64,000 nt of DNA, from assembly GCF_024298765.1 (NCBI RefSeq), contig NZ_CP101210.1. One strand, written 5' to 3'. This DNA comes from Escherichia coli (GTDB lineage Bacteria; Pseudomonadota; Gammaproteobacteria; Enterobacterales; Enterobacteriaceae). How positions within the stretch are numbered: the first letter of the stretch is position 1; each line of letters opens with the position of its first letter. Shown here one piece after another: positions 10,462-23,400 of this stretch. The notes beneath the pieces were generated by a model. The model was given only the letters and a program-made list of their open reading frames with translations. It did not search any database and was not told the origin of the DNA. Made by a program: the position numbers and the translations under genes.

Positions 10462-11439
10462 GGGCAAGATTACGAAAGCCCGCTCCCCGTAAGGACTGAC
10501 GCCAGGTAGTTTCTGTCCATAGCTGCCCTTTCTATTCAAACGTGAAATCAATAAGTTCATCAGGGACATCACAAACAATATGAAGACGGGTTTCTTCTCT
10601 GCCGTGACTCTTTTCACTAATTGAGTAACTGTCGTGCTCTGGATTATTTAATTCTTTCAGCGGAAATTTTTCCTCAAAGGCTTTATTAAGCCGCCACCTG
10701 ATTTCCTTTTACAGCGAATAAATAATCACCTCCCTGTTTTTGTATCTTCTCTGCAATATCTTTCTGGCAACTCATCGCATCAGTTGTGATGATTTTTCCT
10801 TTAATATCCAGCATGTTAAGAAGTTCAGGGATAGCTGTAATTTCATTGGATTTCTCATCCGTCCTGATCTGTCCGATGACCAGACTGTGCATTGTTGAGA
10901 ACGCACTAATGACATGAATCGCTCCCCTGCGGCGACTCTTGTCATAAGAATGCCGGAGCGTTTTTCCATCAATTGCAATAACGTCTTTATCATCTGAAGA
11001 ATGGCAGTCACGCATCCAGTTAATAAAGCACTCGTGAAATTTTGAAGGACTGATACAGGATACAACTCTGGCGATGGTATCGTGAACAGGAATACCATTT
11101 TAAAAATCACCATATTGTTTTAAAAAATCGAGATGTGTTTCCCCAAAATCCTCTATATCTTCCCAACCATCTGCACCAGAAATAACGGCACAAATAGTCA
11201 ACAGTAGAATATCCGACAATTTATGTTCCACTTTTCCAGGATTGTCTGTAATCGGGAATAACAGAAATATGTTCCATCAATTTTTTAAGTACCATTTTGT
11301 TCTCCTTAATTATGTAAGGAGTATTTGATCATGTATAAGCAATAAAAAACAGCTTTAGGTAATGAGGAATATCTCAATTTTTAAACATAAAATGCGAATT
11401 GTCTAGTACAAAAAAGCAGCGTTACGTGATCTTTCCCTG
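10462..11439 (-). mobile_element. degenerate ISAs1-family (H-repeat) copy with internal deletion and frameshift
   Basis: Both ends match the ends of the intact copy at 13087..14388 (CAGGGxAAGATTACG... and ...CGTTACGTGATCTTTCCCTG); about 320 bp missing from the 3' part; ORF fragments 10686..11015 and 10772..11113. Confidence 0.7.
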
Positions 11440-11532
11440 AGAGGTACAGGAACTGCGGGAGGAACTTTATCAGGTTAAACAGGGGTTAAGGGGATGCGGA
11501 ACGGGATGTTTAGTGTGCTGAACGAAAGCTAA
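11440..11532 (+). pseudogene. 3' fragment of SymE-family gene, truncated by the ISAs1 copy
   Basis: ...QELREELYQVKQGLRGCGTGCLVC-type tail homologous to the end of 14396..14725; begins exactly at the IS end. Confidence 0.6.
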
Positions 11533-11587: not shown

Positions 11588-12022
11588 TTATTTATGAATA
11601 TAATATAACTGAACATCATATTCATTATCACTTAAAACTATTAGTCGATCGGGAAATGTAAATGCTAATGAAAGATCATATGTTTCATTTATCGAAAACA
11701 AACTCAATATGAAATTTGAAAAATTTTCGACATGAAGAGATATGCAAACATCTCCATTATAGAATATATTGCAAAGAATATCTTTTTTCACATTCAGTGT
11801 ACTTTCAACATCTCTCGCTAGATCATTAATATTTAAAGGTAAATTGAAAACTCTCCTTTCAATAATATTATCGGTTTTATTTATTGCCATTAGCATTTCT
11901 CGATGCCACATGAAGTCATTCTTACGTAAGAATGATACATCAAAGGAAGTGACACCATTTAATTTAGAAGCATAATCTTTTGCTCTAATTAAATTTAATT
12001 TATCTTCAAGGCTAATTTTCAT
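11588..12022 (-). CDS. putative immunity protein of orphan Rhs C-terminal toxin
   Basis: 144 aa ORF starting 11 nt inside the 3' end of the toxin stub; position-based call only. Confidence 0.5.
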   Translation of the reverse strand: MKISLEDKLNLIRAKDYASKLNGVTSFDVSFLRKNDFMWHREMLMAINKTDNIIERRVFNLPLNINDLARDVESTLNVKKDILCNIFYNGDVCISLHVENFSNFILSLFSINETYDLSLAFTFPDRLIVLSDNEYDVQLYYIHK

Positions 12023-12470
12023 AATATATATGATGATCCTTAGTTACAGGGTCATTGATCTTCTGATATCTATCACTTTTGAAATCGTATGTTCTAGGAT
12101 CAGCGCCCGGTTTAGGTTGTCCTGCATGTGCGTGAGGGCCAGGTGCCCTAGGATCTGCCGTGTGCTCGACTACAACTTTCTTACGTCCGTAGGCATCTGT
12201 ATATTCATAATATCGCCCATGAGACCCTAAATCTTCCGAATATTTATAATTTGTTTGTCCCCTTCTTCTAGGATCATTTCCAACGGTCCATTGCCTATTA
12301 GGTTGCTGTGAACGAGGTATGCCCGCAAGATCTTTTGCTTTATTTAGTGCCTGACGACGGTTTCTTAATTCACCACATTTAAGACCAAGCGGATCTATCC
12401 AGCTTACTGGATTAGGCGCGTAAGCATATAAGTTTAGCCCCCCCGCCAGCCCTATCGGGTCGGGTTACGT
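12012..12470 (-). pseudogene. orphan rhs C-terminal stub: last ~25 core codons (..PIGLAGGLNLYAYAPNPVSWIDPLGL) plus ~125-aa toxin tip, no start codon
   Basis: Hand translation of minus strand; in-frame stop immediately upstream of the core remnant; absent from ORF track because it lacks a start. Confidence 0.6.
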
Positions 12471-12634: not shown

Positions 12635-13030
12635 TTACAACTTCTTTACTTTCCATATTCTTTGCGCAGCTAAAAAAGATACTCCTTTGAACCAAGACGC
12701 ACATTCAATAACTTGTTCCCATGAATATATTTTATGTGAGCTAAATTTTATCGATTCATCTTGGTTCATTATCTCAATAAAATAATATCCTTTATTATAA
12801 TCTCTTTTTTCTATTCTATCTTCAGCTCTTGCCGAACGTATAGAAATAACACAATCATCTAATAAACAAAATCTTTTCTTTATAATCGCATCATCTTGGT
12901 TCCATGGATTTGTACTTGCCATTTGTTCTGATTGTTTCAGCTCATTCACTACTGTATACCAAATAGCTTCGGTATCACTTGCCTTTGCATTCTCTCTATC
13001 AGACTCGGATCTAAATATAATTTTGTCCAT
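12635..13030 (-). CDS. putative orphan immunity protein (cognate toxin replaced by ISAs1)
   Basis: 131 aa ORF; about 20 codons of an upstream ORF end in TAA overlapping its ATG (TAAAATG) just before the IS end. Confidence 0.4.
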   Translation of the reverse strand: MDKIIFRSESDRENAKASDTEAIWYTVVNELKQSEQMASTNPWNQDDAIIKKRFCLLDDCVISIRSARAEDRIEKRDYNKGYYFIEIMNQDESIKFSSHKIYSWEQVIECASWFKGVSFLAAQRIWKVKKL

Positions 13031-13086: not shown

Positions 13087-14388
13087 ACATGGGAACCCAG
13101 GGAAAGATTACGAAAGCCCGCTCCCAGCAAGGACTGACGCCAGATAGTTTCTGTCCATGGCTGCTTTTCGCATCTTACGTCTTAACCCTGCCTTGAATAC
13201 CTTATCATTCGTCAAAATATTAATAGCGATGTGCCGTATCCCTGAAAATAATTCTGCTGCATTTCCTCTTCTTATTTTGCAGTCGTCTTCATTCATTACC
13301 ACGTCCAGACGCCAGTGCAGCTTATTCTCCACGTGCCAGTGGTTTCGGATTGCTGTGGCGAACTTCTCTGCGGTTAAATCAGCAGAACTGATATAATATC
13401 TGACCGTCATTTCTGGCTCTTTCTTTTGTTCTGCTATTATTGACCGAAAGGAGACTGCCACGCATAATTTCTTCAGACCTTTCCATTCAAACGTGAAATC
13501 AATAAGTTCATCAGGGACATCGCAAACAATATGAAGACGGATTTCTTCTCTGCCGTGACTTTTTTCACTAATTGCGTAACTGTCATGCTCTGGATTATTT
13601 AATTCTTTCAGTGGGAATTTTTCCTCAAAGGCTTTATTAAGCCGCCCCTGATTTCCTTTTACAGCGAATAAATAATCACCGCCCTGTTTTTGTATCTTCT
13701 CTGCGATATCTTTCTGGCACCCCATCGCATCAGTTGTGATAATTTTTCCTTTAATATCCAACATGTTAAGAAGTTCAGGGATAGCTGTGATCTCATTGGA
13801 TTTCTCATCCGTCCTGATCTGTCCGATGACCAGACTGTGCATTGTTGAGAACGCACTAATGACATGAATCGCTCCCCTGCGGCGACTCTTGTCATAAGAA
13901 TGCCGGAGCGTTTTTCCATCAATTGCAATAACGTCTTTATCATCTGAAGAATGGCAGTCACGCATCCAGTTAATAAAGCACTCGTGAAATTTTGCAGGAC
14001 TGATACAGGATACAACTCTGGCAATGGTATCGTGAACAGGAATACCATTTTCAAAATCACCATATTGCTTCAAAAAATCGAGATGTGTTTCCCCAAAATC
14101 CTCTATATCTTCCCAGCCTTCTGCACAAGAAATAACGGCACAAATAGTCAACAGTAGAATATCCGACAATTTATGTTCCACTTTCCAGGCTTGTCTGTAA
14201 TCGGGGATAATAGAAATATGTTCCATCAATTTTTTAAGTTCCATTTTGTTCTCCTTAATTATGTAAGGAGTATTTGACCATGTATACGCAATAAAAAACA
14301 GCTTCAGGTAATGAGGAATATCTCAATTTTTAAACATAAAATGCGAATTATTTAGTACAAAAAAGCAGCGTTACGTGATCTTTCCCTG
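13087..14388 (-). mobile_element. ISAs1-family insertion sequence (H-repeat), apparently intact
   Basis: About 1.3 kb; imperfect terminal inverted repeats; single 378-aa transposase ORF. Confidence 0.8.
13108..14244 (-). CDS. ISAs1-family transposase (H-repeat-associated protein)
   Basis: 378 aa, [32 protein letters not shown]..., matches Rhs-associated H-rpt proteins. Confidence 0.9.
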
Positions 14389-14395
14389 GTTAATC

Positions 14396-14725
14396 ATGGC
14401 TGAACACGATATTACGCCAGAAATCACCATTTCCAAAACACAGCGCCGCTATAAAGTCGGCTATGTCAGAGCCCGCCACATAAACAGCAAAACCTACATG
14501 ACCACGTACTACTCACGACACCCCAGCCTGAACCTCAAGGGCGACTGGCTGAAAGAGGCCGGATTTGATACCGGGCGGGGTGTCACGGTGAAGATTTCGG
14601 AGGGGTGCCTGACCATCATCGCTGACAGTGACGAGGTGCAGGAACTGCGGGAGGAACTTTATCAGGTTAAACAGGTGGTTAAGGGGATGCGGAGCGGGAT
14701 GTTTAGTGTGCTGAACGATAATTAA
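14396..14725 (+). CDS. SymE-family (type I toxin-like, AbrB-fold) protein
   Basis: 109 aa; LKGDWLKEAGFDTGRGVTVKISEGCLTIIA resembles the SymE core [30 protein letters not shown] (from memory); start trimmed from ORF 14375. Confidence 0.7.
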   Translation: MAEHDITPEITISKTQRRYKVGYVRARHINSKTYMTTYYSRHPSLNLKGDWLKEAGFDTGRGVTVKISEGCLTIIADSDEVQELREELYQVKQVVKGMRSGMFSVLNDN

Positions 14726-14727
14726 AT

Positions 14728-14772
14728 AATAAAAAGCCGGGAAGATTTAATTTTCTTTCCGGCTTTGTCTAA
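14728..14772. terminator. bidirectional hairpin terminator
   Basis: aagccgggaagatttaattttctttccggctt between convergent genes. Confidence 0.5.
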
Positions 14773-14776
14773 TTAA

Positions 14777-15145
14777 TTATTCAGGAAATTTTCTATTTTT
14801 ATATGATGACCATAAGTGAGTGATCGACCAAGAGTTTTCCTTTCCGAGTACAAAACTTTTGGAGATTATCTCAATATCATCAGATATACGCGAAGATATT
14901 TCAGAATTATTAATCACCCTGAATGAGTATTTAAATGCCTTTTCTCGCAAGGAATCAATAAACTCAATATCATCATCCTGAAAACTTTCCTTATCTAATG
15001 AATTAAACTCACTCATCCAGCAATCATCAAACTCCGGTTCATCTCTTGAGTCTAATGCACTATCAACATTTAATGATTTAAGAAAATCAAAAAATGACGG
15101 GGTGGATAAACAGTTATCAATTTCAATTAGCTTATTATTAATCAT
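14777..15145 (-). CDS. putative immunity protein of orphan Rhs toxin
   Basis: Acidic ~122 aa protein; ATG overlaps toxin stop in TGATG arrangement. Confidence 0.55.
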   Translation of the reverse strand: MINNKLIEIDNCLSTPSFFDFLKSLNVDSALDSRDEPEFDDCWMSEFNSLDKESFQDDDIEFIDSLREKAFKYSFRVINNSEISSRISDDIEIISKSFVLGKENSWSITHLWSSYKNRKFPE

Positions 15146-15790
15146 CACATTAACCCTTGTCCTTTGAGCCAAACCTCTATTAAATCAACAGCCTTGGATG
15201 GTGTCACATTAGTACCTAGCGTATAAGTTCCATTTGGAGATTTAACATCAACTCTGATGTCATCTAATTTTGAATACGCTTTTCTGTAAGCATCAAATAA
15301 CTCTTTATCCGAACCAAGGAAATCACCTTGTCTTGGACCTATCACATCTCGTTCCGCATGATGTAAACGCCAGTGATTATGTTCTGGATTTTCTCCTCTA
15401 GGGAATAATGTTGGGCGAGTTTTATCAGATCGGGAAACTTCAAACGGACGTCCTTTAGATTTACGAACCGCAGGAACATGATGTCCAGATTCACTCACGC
15501 CCATACACTTCTTCGTTAATCCAAGGGGATCGATCCAGCTTAACGGATTCGGTGCATAAGCATACAGGTTTAACCCGCCTCTTAGCCCTATCGGGTCCGT
15601 TACCATGAACCGCCCGACATCCGGATCATAGTACCTGTGCAGATTGTAATGCAGCCCCGTTTCCCTGTCGAGGTACTGTCCCTGGTAGCGCAGGTTCTGC
15701 TCCACCCCGCCGTGGTCCTTCTCCTGTATCGTGTTACCCCAGACCTGATACCCCGTCTCCCACACGATTTTCCCGTCACTGTCCGTCATC
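15145..15790 (-). pseudogene. orphan rhs C-terminal fragment: ~90 core codons + DPLGL + ~120-aa toxin tip with GHH signature
   Basis: ORF 15145..15825; core part near-identical to main rhs (MTDSDGKIVWETGYQVWGN...DPIGLRGGLNLYAYAPNPLSWIDPLGL); 5' end cut by ISAs1. Confidence 0.65.
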
Positions 15791-15792
15791 TC

Positions 15793-17084
15793 CAGGGCAA
15801 GATTACGAAAGCCCGCACCCCGCAAGGACTGACGCCAGATAGTTTCTGTCCATGGCTGCTTTTCGCATCTTACGTCTTAACCCTGCCTTGAATACCTTAT
15901 CATTCGTCAAAATATTAATAGCGATGTGCCGTATCCCTGAAAATAATTCTGCTGCATTTCCTCTTCTTATTTTGCAGTCGTCTTCATTCATTACCACGTC
16001 CAGACGCCAGTGCAGCTTATTCTCCACGTGCCAGTGATTTCGGATCGCTGTGGCGAACTTTTCTGCGGTTAAATCAGCAGAACTGATATAATATCTGACC
16101 GTCATTTCTGGCTCTTTCTTTTGTTCTGCTATTATGGACCGAAAGGAGACTGCCACGCATAATTTCTTCAGTCCTTTCCATTCAAACGTGAAATCAATAA
16201 GTTCATCAGGGACATCACAAACAATATGAAGACGGGTTTCTTCTCTGCCGTGACTCTTTTCACTAATTGAGTAACTGTCGTGCTCTGGATTATTTAATTC
16301 TTTCAGCGGAAATTTTTCCTCAAAGGCTTTATTAAGCCGCCACCTGATTTCCTTTTACAGCGAATAAATAATCACCTCCCTGTTTTTGTATCTTCTCTGC
16401 AATATCTTTCTGGCAACTCATCGCATCAGTTGTGATGATTTTTCCTTTAATATCCAGCATGTTAAGAAGTTCAGGGATAGCTGTAATTTCATTGGATTTC
16501 TCATCCGTCCTGATCTGTCCGATGACCAGACTGTGCATTGTTGAGAACGCACTAATGACATGAATCGCTCCCCTGCGGCGACTCTTGTCATAAGAATGCC
16601 GGAGCGTTTTTCCATCAATTGCAATAACGTCTTTATCATCTGAAGAATGGCAGTCACGCATCCAGTTAATAAAGCACTCGTGAAATTTTGCAGGACTGAT
16701 ACAGGATACAACTCTGGCAATGGTATCGTGAACAGGAATACCATTTTCAAAATCACCATATTGCTTCAAAAAATCGAGATGTGTTTCCCCAAAATCCTCT
16801 ATATCTTCCCAGCCTTCTGCACCAGAAATAACGGCACAAATAGTCAACAGTAGAATATCCGACAATTTATGTTCCACTTTCCAGGCTTGTCTGTAATCGG
16901 GGACAATAGAAATATGTTCCATCAATTTTTTAAGTTCCATTTTGTTCTCCTTAATTATGTAAGGAGTATTTGATCATGTATAAGCAATAAAAAACAGCTT
17001 TAGGTAATGAGGAATATCTCAAATCTTAAACATAAAATGCCAATTATTTAGTACAAAAAAGTAGCGTTACGTGATCTTTCCCTA
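15793..17084 (-). mobile_element. ISAs1-family copy, transposase frameshifted
   Basis: Same ends as the copy at 13087..14388; ORF split into 16332..16940 and 15803..16156; 1-bp difference (gccgccacctgattt vs gccgcccctgattt). Confidence 0.75.
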
Positions 17085-17089
17085 AAACG

Positions 17090-17555
17090 CAGACCCAGTT
17101 GTGCATAGTACACATGGTACGCAACAGCCTGCGGTTCGTGACGTGGAAAGACTATAAAGCGGTAACCCGTGACCTGAAACAGGTTTACCGCGCGGCCACG
17201 GAAGAAGGCGTGTTGCAGGCGCTGGATGCGTTCGGGAAGGAATGGGATGCACGGTACCCGCAGATAAGTCGCAGCTGGCGGGCAAACTGACCGAATGTTG
17301 CCACCTTCTTCGTGTACCCGGAGGCGATCCGAAAGGTTATCTACACCACTAACGCAATCGAATCGCTGAATAGCGTCATCAGACATGCGATAAAGAAAAG
17401 GAAAGTGTTCCCGACAGATGAATCGGTGAAAAAAGTGGTGTGGCTGGCTATCCAGTCAGCCTCACAGAAATGGACGATGCCACTTCAGGACTAGCGGATA
17501 GCCATGAGTCGCTTTATTATCGAGTTCGGTGACCGCCTTGACGGTCACTTCTGAG
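17090..17555 (+). pseudogene. IS256-family (Mutator-type) transposase, 3' remnant with frameshift
   Basis: ORFs 17099..17290 and 17312..17494 carry ...VHMVRNSLRFVTWKDYKAV... and ...IYTTNAIESLNSVIRHAIKKRKVFPTDESVKKVVWLAIQSASQKWTMP... Confidence 0.6.
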
Positions 17556-17619: not shown

Positions 17620-17946
17620 TTAATCACCCGGCTTCTCCCAACATTTTATCTTTTCTATTTCTCTCTCAATATCATCCATATCATCATCTCCAAGATCGGT
17701 ATTAAAATTTTCAGTAATAACCCTTCTTATTTCAGCCAACCGATGTGTAATATTTTTATCATCAATAAATTTAGTGGTTTCTTTAAAGTAAGAATTCAAC
17801 AATTTATCATCAATAACGTTCTGCTCTATACCATTGAAATAATACCTTGCAATATTCTTAAGTGATATCAATATGTACTCTACCTCACTTAGAATATAAA
17901 GGGCATCCTTCCCGGGTATATTAATTACATCATTGTTTTTATTCAT
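17620..17946 (-). CDS. putative immunity protein of orphan Rhs toxin
   Basis: 108 aa ORF starting 1 nt after the orphan toxin stop. Confidence 0.55.
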   Translation of the reverse strand: MNKNNDVINIPGKDALYILSEVEYILISLKNIARYYFNGIEQNVIDDKLLNSYFKETTKFIDDKNITHRLAEIRRVITENFNTDLGDDDMDDIEREIEKIKCWEKPGD

Positions 17947-17947
17947 A

Positions 17948-19735
17948 TTATTTACGCCGAGTTATTTTTGCATTATCAGAAAGAACAATATCACCTTTCA
18001 CAGTCAATTCATCTATATGGTATCGAGGGTTTGTTACCCACTCTAATTGCTCGTTAGGTACATCTGTTTCCACATAATCTCTACCTTTCCCACGACCTAT
18101 TTGATATTTCGCCTCTATGTCTACTTGACTGAGTGGTTTTTTATTCGCAGGTTCCAAATATACACGACCGTTATCATGCGCCTTAATTATCCCACTTTCA
18201 GCAATCGCATTTGAACCTTTACGATTAGTATAATGCCGCACACGAGTAGTTCCATTACAGAGCTCTTTTTTTAATCCGAGTGGATCAATATATTTCAGCG
18301 GATTAGGCGCATAAGCATATAAGTTCAACCCACCCGCCAGCCCTATCGGATCCGTTACAATGAACCGCCCGACATCCGGATCATAGTACCTGTGCAGATT
18401 GTAATGCAGCCCTGTTTCCCTGTCGAGGTACTGTCCCTGGTAGCGCAGGTTCTGCTCCACCCTGCCGTGGTCCTTCTCCTGTATCGTGTTACCCCAGACC
18501 TGATACCCCGTCTCCCACACGATTTTCCCGTCACTGTCCGTCATCTCTTCCGGCGCGCCGTTCACATCCGTGTGAAAATACAGTATCCGGTTCGGGCCCT
18601 CTTTGCCCGCCTTATCCACCCGCGCCAGCGGTTCATAACTCCCCGGGTCCCTGTAGATGTACAGGCTGTCTGTTCCCTCCGGCCTGCTCTCCTGCGCCAG
18701 CCGCATTCCGTCCCATAAAAATGCCGTCCGGTTGTACGGTTTACCGTCAGGGCTGATGTGCTGTTTTTCCGTCCGCCTCCCCAGCGCATCGTACACATAC
18801 CGGTACGTTCCCCGCGCTGTCGTCACTTCCACCATCCGGTGTTCCGCATCATAACGGTAACTCTGCGTGCCGCTCCGCCCCTCCTTTTCCACCGCACGGC
18901 CAAATTCGTCGTAACGGTAGTGCACACCACGGTAAGACATCAGCCGGTTGAACGGCACCACGCTGTTTTCTGCCGTGGCCCTTTCCCCCGCGCGCCGCCC
19001 CAGCAGGTTTCCCGCCGCGTCGTACTGCCAGCTCGCCAGATACCCCTCATCCTCCGAGCGGCACGCCGTGATGCGCCCCGTGGGGTCGTAGAAGTAATCC
19101 GTTTCCCCCCGCCGGCTGTGCCGCGTCTTCAGCAGTTCATCCTCGCCACTGTAGCTGTACTGCCGGTCCGTGAACGTCTCCGGTACCACCCCGCGCATCC
19201 CGCTGTATGTCTCCCTGCGCTTCAGCCGCCCGGCGGGGTCGTAAAGCTGCCGCGTGCTCAGTCGCCCCTGACTTCTGAGCACTTCACGGTGCAGGGCGTC
19301 ACGAGTGAACTCGCTGATGACCTCCCGGTCCAGATTTATCTGCTGGAGATGGCCGCTGCCGTAGTACAGATGACGCTGCGTTCTGCCGTCCGGAAAGGTG
19401 GTGGCTGTCCGGTTGCTGAGTTCATCGTACTGATGGGTCAGGACGCCCTGCGCCGTCTCCTCAGTCAGCATCCGCCCCAGTCTGTCGTAACTGAAACGGA
19501 TAATCTCCGGTGCGTCTGTTTCCCCGGCATCCGACCGTCGGCGGCGGATTTCCAGTAACTGGTCTGCCGCATCATGGACGTATTCCGTACGGCTATCGGC
19601 TGTCTCCTTTGCCGTGAGCCGGCCCGCCGCATCACGTGCCAGCCGGTGGCGGATTTCACCGCCCCGGTCCCCGGTGAACACCACTTCCGTGACCGCGTTC
19701 AGCGCGTTGTAGCGGTACGTCTGGCGGCAGCCGTC
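17948..19735 (-). pseudogene. orphan rhs fragment: ~490 core codons + ~105-aa alternative toxin tip, 5'-truncated
   Basis: ORF 17948..19753; homology to main rhs starts at ...CRQTYRYNALNAV; 18392-19735 is near-identical to 20910-22253. Confidence 0.75.
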
Positions 19736-19764
19736 GTGCTGCCAGCGCAGCATCTGCCCAACCG

Positions 19765-19978
19765 CAGCGACACGCCGGTGATCAAAATCAGCGCCAAATG
19801 GCTGAGAGAAGCGGGATTTGAGATCGGCACGGGCGTTACCGTGAAGATCTCGGAAGGCTGCCTGATCCTGCTTGCAGATAACAACGGAGTACAGGAACTG
19901 CGCAGGGAACTTTATCAGGTTAAACAGTCTGTTAAGGGGATGCGGAACGGGATGTTTAGTATGCTGAACGATAATTAA
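19765..19978 (+). pseudogene. SymE-family gene, C-terminal fragment
   Basis: ...IKISAKWLREAGFEIGTGVTVKISEGCLILLADNNGVQELRRELYQVKQSVKGMRNGMFSMLNDN homologous to 14396..14725; N-terminus lost at the orphan rhs junction. Confidence 0.6.
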
Positions 19979-20043: not shown

Positions 20044-20424
20044 CTAAATCAATCTTTTTTTTAATTCCCTTATTTCAGGAGTTAATGCAAAACTGTCTTC
20101 TAAAGATTCGTCATCCAAGGCCCAGTAATTAATAAGATCTATATGATTTTTATAATTATCAAGCAGAGTGTTGAGTGCTTTTACAATAACTTTATCTGAA
20201 GGAGGTACTCCAGAAGATAATAAATCATTACAGACATCAAGGGCTAAAGTCATTAATTCATTCTTCCCTTTTTGTGAGTAGCCATTATTTAAATATGCAG
20301 CAATATATTTACTTAACCACTCTTTAGTTCGATATTTTTCAGGCAGTTCATAAGCCCAATCTTGTGTAAACTTATCACTCACTGGTACACCAAGTTCACT
20401 ACAGATTTTATCTATTTCATTCAT
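20044..20424 (-). CDS. putative immunity protein of the main Rhs toxin
   Basis: 126 aa ORF 18 nt downstream of rhs stop; position-based call. Confidence 0.55.
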   Translation of the reverse strand: MNEIDKICSELGVPVSDKFTQDWAYELPEKYRTKEWLSKYIAAYLNNGYSQKGKNELMTLALDVCNDLLSSGVPPSDKVIVKALNTLLDNYKNHIDLINYWALDDESLEDSFALTPEIRELKKRLI

Positions 20425-20441
20425 ATATATCCTTCATTATT

Positions 20442-23400
20442 TTAGTTGTCGTGTGATGAATTGAATGGGAACGATGTACGTACAGAACCGTCGGGTTTTA
20501 CAACAACCCTTGCCATATCTGGAACTACCTCTGTCCCATCAGGTAAATAACCTCGACTTTTTATATTTGTAGGCAATGGCACATCATGCACACCTGGTCC
20601 TTTTTTGGCAACAGAAGCAATAAAATCAGCAGCAGAATTATCATCGAGATATTGTCCAACTTGATGACCTTTATTTCTGGCACGATCAATTAACTGATTT
20701 GGTTTCATTTTCTGTCCGTGTTCAGAAAAGGTGTGACCGTATGTAGGCTTACTTTTTGGATTTCCCCATTTGAAGTCAGATTTAGGACACAATCCAAGTG
20801 GGTCGATCCATGACAGTGGATTAGGTGCATACTGATATAAGTTTAACCCGCCTCTCAGCCCTATCGGGTCCGTTACCATGAACCGCCCGACATCCGGATC
20901 ATAGTACCTGTGCAGATTGTAATGCAGTCCCGTTTCCCTGTCGAGGTACTGTCCCTGGTAGCGCAGGTTCTGCGCCACCCCGCCGTGGTCCTTCTCCTGT
21001 ATCGTGTTACCCCAGACCTGATACCCCGTCTCCCACACGATTTTCCCGTCACTGTCCGTCATCTCTTCCGGCGCGCCGTTCACATCCGTGTGAAAATACA
21101 GTATCCGGTTCGGGCCCTCTTTGCCCGCCTTATCCACCCGCGCCAGCGGTTCATAACTCCCCGGGTCCCTGTAGATGTACAGGCTGTCTGTTCCCTCCGG
21201 CCTGCTCTCCTGCGCCAGCCGCATTCCGTCCCATAAAAATGCCGTCCGGTTGTACGGTTTACCGTCAGGGCTGATGTGCTGTTTTTCCGTCCGCCTCCCC
21301 AGCGCATCGTACACATACCGGTACGTTCCCCGCGCTGTCGTCACTTCCACCATCCGGTGTTCCGCATCATAACGGTAACTCTGCGTGCCGCTCCGCCCCT
21401 CCTTTTCCACCGCACGGCCAAATTCGTCGTAACGGTAGTGCACACCACGGTAAGACATCAGCCGGTTGAACGGCACCACGCTGTTTTCTGCCGTGGCCCT
21501 TTCCCCCGCGCGCCGCCCCAGCAGGTTTCCCGCCGCGTCGTACTGCCAGCTCGCCAGATACCCCTCATCCTCCGAGCGGCACGCCGTGATGCGCCCCGTG
21601 GGGTCGTAGAAGTAATCCGTTTCCCCCCGCCGGCTGTGCCGCGTCTTCAGCAGTTCATCCTCGCCACTGTAGCTGTACTGCCGGTCCGTGAACGTCTCCG
21701 GTACCACCCCGCGCATCCCGCTGTATGTCTCCCTGCGCTTCAGCCGCCCGGCGGGGTCGTAAAGCTGCCGCGTGCTCAGTCGCCCCTGACTTCTGAGCAC
21801 TTCACGGTGCAGGGCGTCACGAGTGAACTCGCTGATGACCTCCCGGTCCAGATTTATCTGCTGGAGATGGCCGCTGCCGTAGTACAGATGACGCTGCGTT
21901 CTGCCGTCCGGAAAGGTGGTGGCTGTCCGGTTGCTGAGTTCATCGTACTGATGGGTCAGGACGCCCTGCGCCGTCTCCTCAGTCAGCATCCGCCCCAGTC
22001 TGTCGTAACTGAAACGGATAATCTCCGGTGCGTCTGTTTCCCCGGCATCCGACCGTCGGCGGCGGATTTCCAGTAACTGGTCTGCCGCATCATGGACGTA
22101 TTCCGTACGGCTATCGGCTGTCTCCTTTGCCGTGAGCCGGCCCGCCGCATCACGTGCCAGCCGGTGGCGGATTTCACCGCCCCGGTCCCCGGTGAACACC
22201 ACTTCCGTGACCGCGTTCAGCGCGTTGTAGCGGTACGTCTGGCGGCAGCCGTCCGGATTTATCTGCTCCGCCAGACGGTCCAGCACGTCATGGCGGAACC
22301 GGTAGCTTTCTCCGTTCTCGTTTGTCAGCGTGACCAGACGCCCGTAAGCATCGTACCCGAACGCCGTCCTGCGCCCCGTCGCGTCTGTCCGGCTGCGCAC
22401 CCGGCCCTGCCCGTCCCGCTGCCAGCGCGTTATCCTCCCCATCGGGCTGGTGTACTTCACCAGCCTGCCCGCCGCGTCCGACTGGTAATTCACCGTGCGG
22501 CCGTCCGCCAGTATCACCTCCGTCAGGTGGCCGCTGTCGTCATACCCGTAGCGCGTGCTGTGGCTCTGCGCGTCTGTCATCCGTATCAGCCGCGTGCGTT
22601 CGTCGTAGAACCAGGCCGTCTGCGAGCCGGAACAGTCCGTGTGCCGCATGAGCTGCCCGTCTTCGTTCCACTGAAGGTATTTATTCCCCCCGCGCGCATC
22701 GGTTATCTGCACCACCTGGCCGTGGCGGTCATACTGATACCGGGTGTTCTGCTGCAGCGGGTCGGTCACCGCAAGAAGATTGCCGCGTTCATCGTACTCA
22801 CAGCACCAGCTGTTCCCCGCCGCGTCCACCTCCGTTTCCGGCTGGTGCCACACCGGGTGCCACTGTGTCTGTGCCACCCGCCCCAGCGGGTCGTGCGTCT
22901 CCGTGATATGCCCCTGCCGGTCATACACATAGCGCCATTTGCCGCCCTGCGCATCGGTCATTCCCAGTAACAGCCGTTCTTCGTCGCTCCAGCGGAACGT
23001 CGTCACCTGCCCGGCTTCGTCCTGGTACGCCGTCACCTGATTCTGCGCGTCCCACTGATGATAACGCGTGCGCCCCAGCCCGTCCGTCACGCACAGCCTG
23101 CGTGACGCCAGGCTCCACGCCAGCCGGTACTGTTCACCGCTGTCCGTGTGGTGCCCCGTCACCCGCCACGCTGCGTCATCCGGGCCTTCATACCAGCTCC
23201 ACTGGTAATAATACCCTTCGCCGCCCGGCTGGCGGTGCAGGGTCATGCAGTGGTTTTCGTCGTAAGCAAACTCGCGCAGCAGGTGTCCCGTGCTGTCGTA
23301 CACGCCGTTCAGGTCGCCGGCCTCGTCATAGCGGTAACGACGCAGCAGTAAAGGAGCCGTCTCAGGGAAATGCTGATAAATCTGTGTCACCCGCCGGGGA

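What the first reader, a model, noticed from the sequence alone, without database searches (positions are those of the whole stretch)
14777..15515. Orphan toxin tip 3 carries a GHH-type HNH-nuclease signature; immunity gene is translationally coupled
The tail contains ...SESGHHVPAV... followed by ...NPEHNHWRLHH..., resembling the [A/G/S]HH-x-P signature of AHH/GHH/SHH-type HNH/EndoVII-fold nuclease toxins. Its stop overlaps the ATG of the next ORF (TGATG), consistent with a nuclease/immunity pair. The 5' core was cut by an ISAs1 insertion, so it cannot be recruited without further rearrangement.
Basis: inference. Interest (0 to 1): 0.5.

Follow-up and report, generated by a model that had tools for sequence, protein, structure and literature searches.

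The report
Orphan PT1 DNase toxin with immunity

Summary
On the minus strand, a 123-codon Rhs C-terminal tip (15516..15148) carries SESGHHVPAV and NPEHNHWRLHH. Its TGA shares one base with the ATG of a 122-codon ORF (15145..14777). An ISEc1/ISAs1 copy abuts the last 275 bp of Rhs core.

The pair is already known. The tip is 97% identical to PT1(Em) and the downstream ORF 96% identical to PIM1(Em), crystallised together as PDB 8OWS. The preprint that describes this pair (Nachmias et al.) reports a metal-dependent, non-specific endo-DNase that PIM1 blocks by covering the active site. It also reports that H44A and H48A, the HxxxH pair here, abolish toxicity.

The proposed GHH/AHH/SHH membership is not supported:
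- Pfam and NCBIfam give no HNH-family hit, although they detect the neighbouring tip 4 as Tox-HNH-EHHH.
- A profile-profile comparison with an AHH-type family is no better than shuffled controls.

A cryptic His-Me finger stays plausible, at about 0.5. The conserved His, long basic loop, strand and HxxxH helix come in the right order. A truncated model weakly matches a phage HNH endonuclease.

In E. coli the module is rare: 60 of 5426 genomes, always as this truncated orphan. It could still be re-armed by recombination.

The parts
15148..15516 (-). PT1-family DNase toxin tip. It has 123 codons, starting after DPLGL, and its stop codon is at 15147..15145. pI is 9.5 and GC is 41%.
15478..15486 (-). 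Codons GGA CAT CAT, encoding G11-H12-H13, the 'GHH' motif (H8/H9 in the PT1 paper numbering). H13 is the candidate general base.
   Evidence: Read from the sequence. G11 and H13 are at least 90% conserved across the superfamily, while H12 is Ala in subfamily C. Both models place a strand or bridge at these residues.
15361..15375 (-). Codons for H48-W-R-L-H52, the HxxxH motif on the helix (H44 and H48 in the paper numbering).
   Evidence: Invariant in 35 diverse relatives. The preprint reports that H44A and H48A abolish toxicity in vivo. They lie on helix 44-58 of the model.
14777..15145 (-). PIM1-family immunity gene of 122 codons (pI 4.5, GC 31%). Its ATG shares one base with the toxin's TGA.
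   Evidence: 96% identical to PDB 8OWS chain A 'PIM1', E = 1.5e-73. Newer RefSeq records name it 'immunity protein PIM1 family protein'. The same toxin/immunity synteny is seen in L003 (1-nt overlap) and L002 (Flavobacterium, 32% identity).
15517..15791 (-). Remnant of the Rhs core (92 codons, ending DPLGL, GC 55%). It is the homology arm for recombination with the main rhs gene.
   Evidence: TIGR03696 Rhs_assc_core E = 7e-30. It is 93.9% identical to the main rhs core at 20791..21065 and 91.7% identical to orphan 2 at 18271..18547. Exact runs of 90, 71 and 45 bp are shared with the main rhs.
15792..17083 (-). ISEc1 (ISAs1 family) copy with a 1-nt indel that frameshifts the transposase. Its end abuts the core remnant and supplies the first 11 codons of the 226-aa ORF.
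   Evidence: 97.4% identical over 1292 bp to the intact copy at 13097..14387. The junction was read. RefSeq annotates 'ISAs1 family transposase, frameshifted'.
14723..14766 (-). Hairpin (14766..14733) plus U-run (14732..14723) immediately after the immunity stop codon. It is a probable intrinsic terminator, shared with the convergent SymE gene.
   Evidence: RNA fold gives -15.7 kcal/mol, z = -4.5, and 0 of 200 shuffles fold as well. The consensus scanner missed it because the stem has one mismatch.

Best explanation
**What it is.** The region is an orphan PT1/PIM1 toxin-immunity cassette in the E. coli rhsC locus, which is headed by a T6SS PAAR-Rhs effector gene.

**The toxin.** The tip encodes a small basic domain. 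In the near-identical E. marmotae protein this domain is reported to be a divalent-metal-dependent, sequence-non-specific endo-DNase (from the preprint, not tested here). I infer that the active site is built from H13 of the GHH strand and H48/H52 on the following helix. The 22-residue loop between them is rich in Arg and Lys (R18, K19, R23, R29 and R34 are invariant within the PT1 subfamily) and probably grips DNA.

**The immunity protein.** The overlapping downstream gene encodes acidic PIM1. In the crystal structure PIM1 sits over the catalytic pocket with a negatively charged face.

**State in this genome.** Only 92 codons of Rhs core remain upstream, and an ISEc1 copy abuts them. The toxin therefore has no PAAR domain or Rhs shell and cannot be loaded on the T6SS (inferred). 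It is stored cargo. The immunity gene is intact and ends in its own terminator. It probably protects against PT1-armed competitors (inferred).

**Re-arming.** One RecA-type deletion between the main rhs core and the 275-bp remnant would re-arm the toxin (inferred).

**Fold.** At the fold level, the catalytic core is most economically read as a very divergent His-Me finger (beta-beta-alpha-metal). This part is unproven, at about 0.5.
For: **Identity**
- phmmer against PDB: 8OWS_C at E = 1.3e-76 and 8OWS_A 'PIM1' at E = 1.5e-73.

**Function (bioRxiv 10.1101/2021.10.19.465003)**
- DNase activity on plasmid and genomic DNA that is abolished by EDTA, with no activity on tRNA.
- PIM1 blocks the activity in vitro and occludes the pocket.
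- H44A and H48A are non-toxic in vivo.

**Conservation**
- H48 and H52 are invariant, and G11, H13, P35 and A54 are at least 90% conserved, across three subfamilies drawn from 114 cluster representatives.
- All residues invariant in the A1 alignment are intact here. The only natural differences from PT1(Em) are S30F, N47S and L67P, all at positions that vary among relatives.

**Orphan status**
- IS junction at 15791/15792. RefSeq marks the toxin ORF as a pseudogene lacking its N-terminus.
- The main rhs carries PAAR and DUF6531 domains.
- The homology arm has exact runs of 90, 71 and 45 bp.
- A terminator follows the immunity gene.

**His-Me reading**
- A strand at HH, a strand at 36-39 and a helix at 44-58 occur in both models.
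- The motif equals the 's[AGP]HH, HxxxH' signature that Zhang et al. 2012 give for Tox-GHH2.
- It also fits the His-Me rules in Jablonska et al. 2017: a His at the end of beta-1, a ligand just before it, and ligands on the helix at +4.
Against: **Against the His-Me reading**
- No Pfam or NCBIfam HNH-clan hit.
- hhalign against an AHH-type family scores 15.1, and 207 of 249 block-shuffled templates score as high.
- The authors of the crystal structure state that the topology resembles no known protein.
- No conserved Asn lies in the loop.

**Against functional relevance in E. coli**
- The toxin ORF is a pseudogene.
- All 60 carriers are at least 99% identical, so conservation says nothing about selection.
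- Expression of the immunity gene was not tested, and promoter-like sites are no more frequent than in shuffles.

**A caveat on the biochemistry**
- H44A and H48A kept DNase activity in vitro. Neither His alone is therefore indispensable for catalysis.
Confidence: 0.88

Rival explanations
1. The tip is a bona fide member of one of the described HNH/EndoVII toxin families (Tox-GHH, Tox-GHH2, AHH or Tox-SHH).
For: - The motif looks alike: sGHH-x-P and HxxxH match the Tox-GHH2 signature 's[AGP]HH, HxxxH'. That family is also Rhs-borne and has the same phyletic spread.
- One distant relative (the C-terminus of P0139) gives a sub-threshold AHH hit, E = 0.11, spanning GHH through HxxxH.
- The activity is metal-dependent DNase.
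Against: - No hit to PF15636, PF15635, PF14412, PF15652 or any other HNH model at E <= 1-10. This holds for the tip, for three subfamily consensus sequences, and for all but that one of about 50 relatives.
- NCBIfam is also negative.
- The same library detects tip 4 at E = 8.9e-10.
- An exhaustive profile search of 1.84 billion proteins recovered only 114 cluster representatives with E <= 0.001. Those examined fall into the three PT1-type subfamilies, and the weakest and truncated hits were not classified. No bridge to the large AHH family was seen.
- The Tox-GHH signature (WxxE, W, NIxF) is absent.
Confidence: 0.07
2. PT1 is a nuclease with a new fold, unrelated to His-Me fingers, as its discoverers state. 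On this view the GHH/HxxxH resemblance is convergent use of histidines around a metal.
For: - Foldseek finds only 8ows_C.
- The profile-profile comparison is no better than shuffles.
- The authors state that the topology is new.
- The N-terminal 30 residues are poorly ordered in the full model.
Against: - His-Me fingers are about 35-residue motifs set in unrelated scaffolds. Their families are often not linked by sequence models; seven Pfam toxin families were not assigned to the His-Me Pfam clan when Jablonska et al. 2017 classified the superfamily.
- The order of elements and the position of every conserved His fit the finger.
- The truncated model picks up an HNH endonuclease among only 9 non-self hits.
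Confidence: 0.45
3. The cassette is inert debris. On this view neither gene is expressed or useful, and it persists only because one E. coli lineage inherited it recently.
For: - It is present in 60 of 5426 complete genomes, all at least 99% identical and all with the same IS junction.
- The toxin ORF is annotated as a pseudogene.
- There is no excess of promoter-like sites.
Against: - Both reading frames are intact, with every residue invariant in the A1 alignment present.
- The overlap, an SD-like AAGGG upstream of the ATG, and a strong terminator are all preserved.
- The IS transposase gene reads in the same direction and could supply read-through transcription (inferred).
Confidence: 0.25

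Closest known systems
PT1(Em)-PIM1(Em) from Escherichia marmotae (PDB 8OWS; Nachmias et al., bioRxiv 10.1101/2021.10.19.465003)
   Different: Here the tip is still joined to a 92-codon Rhs core remnant that is truncated by ISEc1, rather than standing as a free 119-aa ORF. There are three natural substitutions (S30F, N47S, L67P), all at positions that vary among relatives.
Tox-GHH2 (PF15635; for example P. aeruginosa Tse7)
   Same: The published signature 's[AGP]HH, HxxxH' matches. It is also Rhs-associated and T6SS-delivered, occurs in beta- and gamma-proteobacteria, Bacteroidetes and Firmicutes, and has DNase function.
   Different: The Pfam model gives no hit at all to this tip or its relatives. 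I could not obtain a Tox-GHH2 sequence for a direct profile comparison.
AHH / Tox-SHH His-Me finger toxins (for example Agrobacterium V2a and V2c)
   Same: [AGS]HH-x-P sits on the first strand, a long loop follows, and His ligands lie on the next helix. V2a also has AHH...HxxxH.
   Different: Sequence profiles are not significantly related: hhalign scores 15, within the shuffled range. The PT1 loop is basic and lacks the conserved Asn.
Colicin E9/E7 DNase (classical H-N-H)
   Same: An HH pair on beta-1 is followed by P-x-x-H-x3-H on the helix. Both are metal-dependent, non-specific DNases blocked by an acidic immunity protein. The colicin details come from my own knowledge.
   Different: There is no detectable sequence or whole-domain structural similarity. 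The PT1 loop is 22 residues, against about 20 with a conserved Asn in colicins. The immunity proteins are unrelated.
Orphan rhs toxin/immunity modules (Salmonella and E. coli rhs loci)
   Same: It has a 3' core fragment plus a low-GC tip plus an immunity gene, lies downstream of a main rhs gene, and is flanked by H-rpt/ISAs1 elements.
   Different: The core fragment is unusually short (275 bp) because the IS abuts it.

Membership tests
PT1 toxin domain (Nachmias et al.) | Sequence homology to the validated PT1 representative | tested here: met
   97% identity to 8OWS_C, E = 1.3e-76. Also 97% to the E. marmotae protein P0001.
PT1 toxin domain (Nachmias et al.) | Same three-dimensional structure | tested here: met
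PT1 toxin domain (Nachmias et al.) | Conserved catalytic histidines H44 and H48 (paper numbering) | tested here: met
   Present as H48 and H52 of the tip, and invariant in alignment A2.
PT1 toxin domain (Nachmias et al.) | Cognate PIM1 immunity gene immediately downstream | tested here: met
   96% identity to 8OWS_A. There is a 1-nt stop/start overlap.
PT1 toxin domain (Nachmias et al.) | Metal-dependent DNase activity neutralised by PIM1 | not testable with these tools
   Reported for PT1(Em) mutants in the preprint.
Tox-GHH (PF15636) | Signature WxxE, W, G[HQ]H, NIxF, [DE]H (Zhang et al. 2012) and a Pfam HMM match | tested here: not met
   Only GHH is present. There is no WxxE or NIxF and no Pfam hit at E <= 1.
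Tox-GHH2 (PF15635) | Motif s[AGP]HH ... HxxxH | tested here: met
   S-G-H-H at residues 10-13 and H48-WRL-H52.
Tox-GHH2 (PF15635) | Match to the family HMM | tested here: not met
   No hit at E <= 10 for the tip, the consensus sequences or the roughly 50 relatives scanned.
AHH (PF14412) | Match to the family HMM, or to a profile of an AHH-type family | tested here: not met
   One of about 50 relatives hits at E = 0.11, below the cut-off. hhalign against the V2a family scores 15.1, and 207 of 249 shuffles score as high.
Tox-SHH (PF15652) | Match to the family HMM | tested here: not met
   No hit. The motif [SG]HH...H is trivially present.
His-Me finger (beta-beta-alpha-metal) superfamily | Near-invariant His at the C-terminal end of beta-1, an omega loop, beta-2, then an alpha-helix | tested here: inconclusive
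   DSSP shows a bridge or strand at H12-H13, a strand at 36-39 and a helix at 44-58 in two models. Strand pairing and geometry could not be inspected because no coordinates were available.
His-Me finger (beta-beta-alpha-metal) superfamily | A metal ligand (N/H) early in the helix, plus ligands at +4/+8 and just before the catalytic His | tested here: inconclusive
   H48, H52 (+4) and H12 sit at the expected sequence positions. No metal was seen in the PT1 crystal.
His-Me finger (beta-beta-alpha-metal) superfamily | Structural similarity to solved His-Me nucleases | tested here: inconclusive
Orphan Rhs toxin module | A 3' core fragment ending DPxGL, a drop in GC at the tip, an immunity gene downstream, and homology to the main rhs core | tested here: met
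   TIGR03696 E = 7e-30. GC falls from 55% to 41% to 31%. The remnant is 93.9% identical to the main rhs core.

The most novel reading that the evidence does not exclude
The PT1 family, published as a DNase with a fold unlike any known protein, would be a cryptic and extremely divergent His-Me finger. In this reading the catalytic His is H13, at the end of a minimal first strand. A 22-residue Arg/Lys-rich omega loop replaces the usual Asn-bearing loop, and the HxxxH metal ligands sit on the helix. Its closest relative by signature would be Tox-GHH2. The superfamily also has a subfamily in which the first His of the dyad is Ala (GAHLVE) and one whose helix reads HExxH.
Probability: 0.5. Interest if true: 0.35.

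Novelty: already known. Interest (0 to 1): 0.22.

Why it matters
For this genome it settles the annotation. The 'hypothetical protein' and the 'RHS core pseudogene' are a PIM1 immunity gene and a PT1 DNase tip, stored as an orphan in a four-tip rhsC array.

If the His-Me reading holds, PT1 joins the largest superfamily of interbacterial DNase toxins, and its mechanism can be borrowed from colicins rather than worked out afresh.

Tried and rejected
- **Single-sequence HMM scans.** Pfam and NCBIfam scans of the tip for HNH families returned only Rhs core hits.
- **Relatives and consensus sequences.** Pfam scans of 35 relatives, then 10 subfamily-B relatives, then 3 subfamily consensus sequences plus an overall consensus and 6 outliers, gave one sub-threshold AHH hit at E = 0.11. 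I treat that as a hint only.
- **PDB sequence searches.** Profiles of the whole domain and of the core found only 8OWS.
- **Getting HNH-toxin sequences.**
  - The Zhang 2012 and Jablonska 2017 supplements hold no alignments.
  - The P. aeruginosa effector supplements hold no Tse7 sequence.
  - V2a and V2c of Agrobacterium were recovered from a supplement. Pfam itself barely recognises them, and V2a has only 10 homologues in the database.
- **Profile-profile comparison.** hhalign of PT1 against the V2a family at first looked encouraging, because it aligned GHH with AHH and HxxxH with HxxxH. It is rejected as evidence because block-shuffled templates score as well.
- **Zincin reading.** I considered a metallopeptidase reading because subfamily B has HExxH. 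I rejected it for this tip because it has HWRLH and the near-identical protein is reported to be a DNase.
- **Simple IS insertion.** Rejected: there is no target duplication and no rhs core on the far side of the IS.

Full report
**1. What is in the sequence**

The window is the E. coli rhsC locus, between kdp/ybfA and ybgA/phrB, read on the minus strand. A 226-codon ORF at 15825..15145 has three parts:

| Codons | Origin |
|---|---|
| First 11 | Read-through from an IS end |
| Next 92 | 3' end of an Rhs core (TIGR03696, E = 7e-30), ending DPLGL |
| Last 123 | The tip, TKKCMGVSESGHHVPAV...NPEHNHWRLHH...GQGLM |

- The toxin's TGA (15147..15145) shares its A with the ATG (15145..15143) of a 122-codon ORF that ends at 14777.
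- GC falls from 55% in the core remnant to 41% in the tip and 31% in the immunity gene, as expected for an Rhs tip.
- Immediately after the immunity stop codon there is a hairpin at 14766..14733 followed by a U-run. It folds at -15.7 kcal/mol with z = -4.5, so it is a probable terminator.

**2. The IS junction**

- BLAST between the IS copies puts an ISEc1 (ISAs1-family) element at 15792..17083. It is 1292 bp and 97.4% identical to the intact 1291-bp copy at 13097..14387, with one indel that frameshifts the transposase.
- Its end touches the core remnant at 15791/15792.
- There is no target-site duplication, and the other flank (from 17084) is not rhs core. The IS marks a truncation or rearrangement, not a clean insertion.
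- The remaining 275 bp is 93.9% identical to the 3' core of the main rhs gene (20791..21065) and 91.7% identical to orphan 2. Exact runs of 90, 71 and 45 bp are shared with the main gene.
- From my own knowledge, that is well above the roughly 25-30 bp needed for RecA recombination. One deletion event could fuse the PAAR-Rhs gene (PAAR and DUF6531 domains) to this tip.

**3. What it is**

- A phmmer search of PDB sequences gave one strong hit for each protein. The tip matches 8OWS chain C (E = 1.3e-76, 97% identity) and the downstream ORF matches 8OWS chain A, named PIM1 (E = 1.5e-73, 96% identity).
- 8OWS is 'polymorphic toxin PT1(Em) H44A mutant and its cognate immunity PIM1(Em)'.
- The preprint that describes this pair is bioRxiv 10.1101/2021.10.19.465003. 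It reports the following:
  - PT1 is toxic in E. coli.
  - The H44A and H48A mutants are non-toxic in vivo.
  - The purified mutants still degrade plasmid and genomic DNA but not tRNA.
  - EDTA abolishes the activity.
  - PIM1 blocks it in vitro.
  - In the crystal, PIM1 covers the catalytic pocket with a negatively charged face.
- In my numbering of the 123-residue tip, paper H44 and H48 are H48 and H52, the HxxxH of 'HWRLH'. The GHH dyad is H12/H13 (paper H8/H9). No mutation of the dyad is reported in the preprint sections read.
- The only natural differences from PT1(Em) are S30F, N47S and L67P, all at positions that vary among relatives.
- The tip has pI 9.5 and the immunity protein pI 4.5.
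- Some newer RefSeq records already name the downstream gene 'immunity protein PIM1 family protein'.

**4. The family**

- A word-indexed search found 73 close relatives (58-97% identity) in Proteobacteria, Bacteroidetes, Firmicutes and Acidobacteria.
- An exhaustive profile search of 1.84 billion representatives found 114.
- They fall into three subfamilies:
  - A, PT1 proper: sGHHVPAVRKS...RPT...HWRLH.
  - B: GMGHHLVPRGKANS...TPTFFP...HExxH, at the C-termini of long Rhs-type proteins.
  - C: GAHLVER...TPRFYP...AHxRLH.
- Across all three, H48, H52 and L73 are invariant. G11, H13, P35 and A54 are at least 90% conserved. H12 is Ala in subfamily C.
- The conserved catalytic set is therefore one His on the N-terminal strand plus HxxxH on the helix.
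- Toxin/immunity synteny holds elsewhere. An enterobacterial-type metagenome locus has the same 1-nt overlap (L003 4001-4360 and 4360-4728). A Flavobacterium covae locus has a 32%-identical PIM1 homologue 18 nt downstream.

**5. Is it an HNH/EndoVII (GHH-type) nuclease?**

*Tests that failed*

- Pfam and NCBIfam give no HNH-clan hit for the tip at E <= 1.
- Of 35 diverse relatives, one (subfamily B, P0139) gives AHH at E = 0.11, covering GHH through HxxxH but below threshold.
- Consensus sequences of the three subfamilies give nothing.
- The scan itself works: tip 4 of this same locus hits Tox-HNH-EHHH at E = 8.9e-10, and tip 2 hits Tox-ART-HYD1.
- PDB sequence profiles find only 8OWS.
- I recovered the Agrobacterium AHH-type effector V2a from a supplement, collected its small family and ran hhalign. 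The first alignment put GHH on AHH and HxxxH on HxxxH, but the score (15.1) is matched by 207 of 249 block-shuffled templates. It is not evidence.

*Points in favour of a cryptic His-Me finger*

- Zhang et al. 2012 define Tox-GHH2 by 's[AGP]HH, HxxxH', on Rhs proteins of beta- and gamma-proteobacteria, Bacteroidetes and Firmicutes. That is exactly this pattern and distribution.
- Jablonska et al. 2017 define the finger as follows:
  - a near-invariant His at the end of beta-1, often preceded by a D/E/H ligand;
  - a variable omega loop, then beta-2;
  - a helix with an N/H ligand near its start and another ligand at +4 or +8.
- Both models place a strand at H12-H13, a strand at 36-39 and a helix at 44-58 that carries H48 and H52.
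- If His-Me chains make up about 0.2% of that library (my rough estimate, not computed), one such hit among nine non-self hits has a chance probability of about 0.01-0.02.
- His-Me toxin families are hard to link by sequence. Pfam barely recognises V2a, which its authors call an AHH nuclease (E = 0.18).

*Verdict on this point*

Membership of GHH, AHH, SHH or GHH2 as defined by their models is not met. 'Works like a His-Me finger' stays plausible at about 0.5. The alternative, a truly new fold as its discoverers state, is about equally likely.

**6. Status in E. coli**

- The tip-plus-immunity DNA occurs in 60 of 5426 complete genomes, always on the chromosome and at least 99% identical. No diverged alleles appear even with sensitive blastn.
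- The 1201-bp query that includes the IS junction and the SymE flank is also fully covered in exactly 60 genomes. In this collection, the junction query and the cassette query are each fully covered in exactly 60 genomes, so PT1 most likely exists in E. coli only as this truncated orphan. Many carriers are avian isolates.
- RefSeq marks the toxin ORF as a pseudogene lacking its N-terminus.
- Without the PAAR domain and Rhs shell it cannot be delivered (inference).
- The immunity gene is intact, has an SD-like AAGGG 9-13 nt upstream of its ATG, and has its own terminator. Its expression is untested. Promoter-like sites are not enriched, but the IS transposase gene reads in the same direction.

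**7. Verdict**

It is unproven about GHH-type HNH membership and misleading about recruitability.
- The object is already known and structurally characterised, so novelty is low.
- The residual interest is the possibility that the 'novel fold' PT1 is a hidden His-Me finger. A residue-level superposition of 8OWS on a colicin or phage HNH core would decide this in minutes.

Noticed in passing
window 14375..14725 (+) and 19574..19978 (+): A SymE-family (type I toxin, AbrB-like fold) gene lies convergent to, and immediately downstream of, each of two rhs tip/immunity modules. The two copies share the C-terminal ...GVTVKISEGCL...VQELR.ELYQVKQ.VKGMR.GMFS.LNDN. The second overlaps the 5' end of orphan 2. 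I do not know of a described recurrent pairing of SymE with rhs orphan modules.
   Followed up: partly
window 12012..12449 (-) with immunity at 11588..12022 (-): A fourth tip, with no standard start codon, begins inside a short core remnant (LAGGLNLYAYAPNP...DPLGL). It is a Tox-HNH-EHHH nuclease (Pfam E = 8.9e-10) and overlaps its putative immunity gene by 11 nt. It served as a positive control for the HNH scans.
   Followed up: partly
window 17948..19753 (-) with 17620..17946 (-): Orphan 2 keeps about 500 codons of core. Its tip is a Tox-ART-HYD1 ADP-ribosyltransferase (Pfam E = 7e-15), and a 108-aa putative immunity gene follows.
   Followed up: partly
window 20442..20790 (-) and 20044..20424 (-): The tip of the main PAAR-Rhs protein (CPKSDFKWGNPKSKPTYGHTF...) and its 126-aa downstream ORF have no Pfam match at E <= 0.01. 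This toxin/immunity pair is unclassified.
   Followed up: partly
window 12635..13030 (-): A 131-aa ORF lies directly downstream of the intact ISEc1 copy (13097..14387), with no toxin tip in front of it and no Pfam match. It may be an orphan immunity gene whose toxin was removed by the IS.
   Followed up: no
proteins P0108-P0173 (subfamily B of the PT1 superfamily): In subfamily B the invariant HxxxH reads HExxH (HEELH, HELIH, HEALH and others), the zincin metalloprotease motif. It is HWRLH in PT1 and AHxRLH in subfamily C. No peptidase family hit was seen. Whether subfamily B has a different activity is open.
   Followed up: no
window 10500..11450 (-) and 17048..17500: A third, truncated ISAs1/ISEc1 copy (96% identical over 913 bp) sits next to ybgA. 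Fragments of another transposase lie upstream of IS copy b. The locus has been repeatedly reworked by IS elements.
   Followed up: partly
window 15502..15504 (-): The tip has an internal Met (M5, in MGVSESGHH...), preceded by the purine-rich GAAGAAG. Many relatives, including the crystallised PT1(Em), are annotated as free-standing 119-aa ORFs that start exactly at this Met. A free toxin could therefore be translated internally.
   Followed up: no
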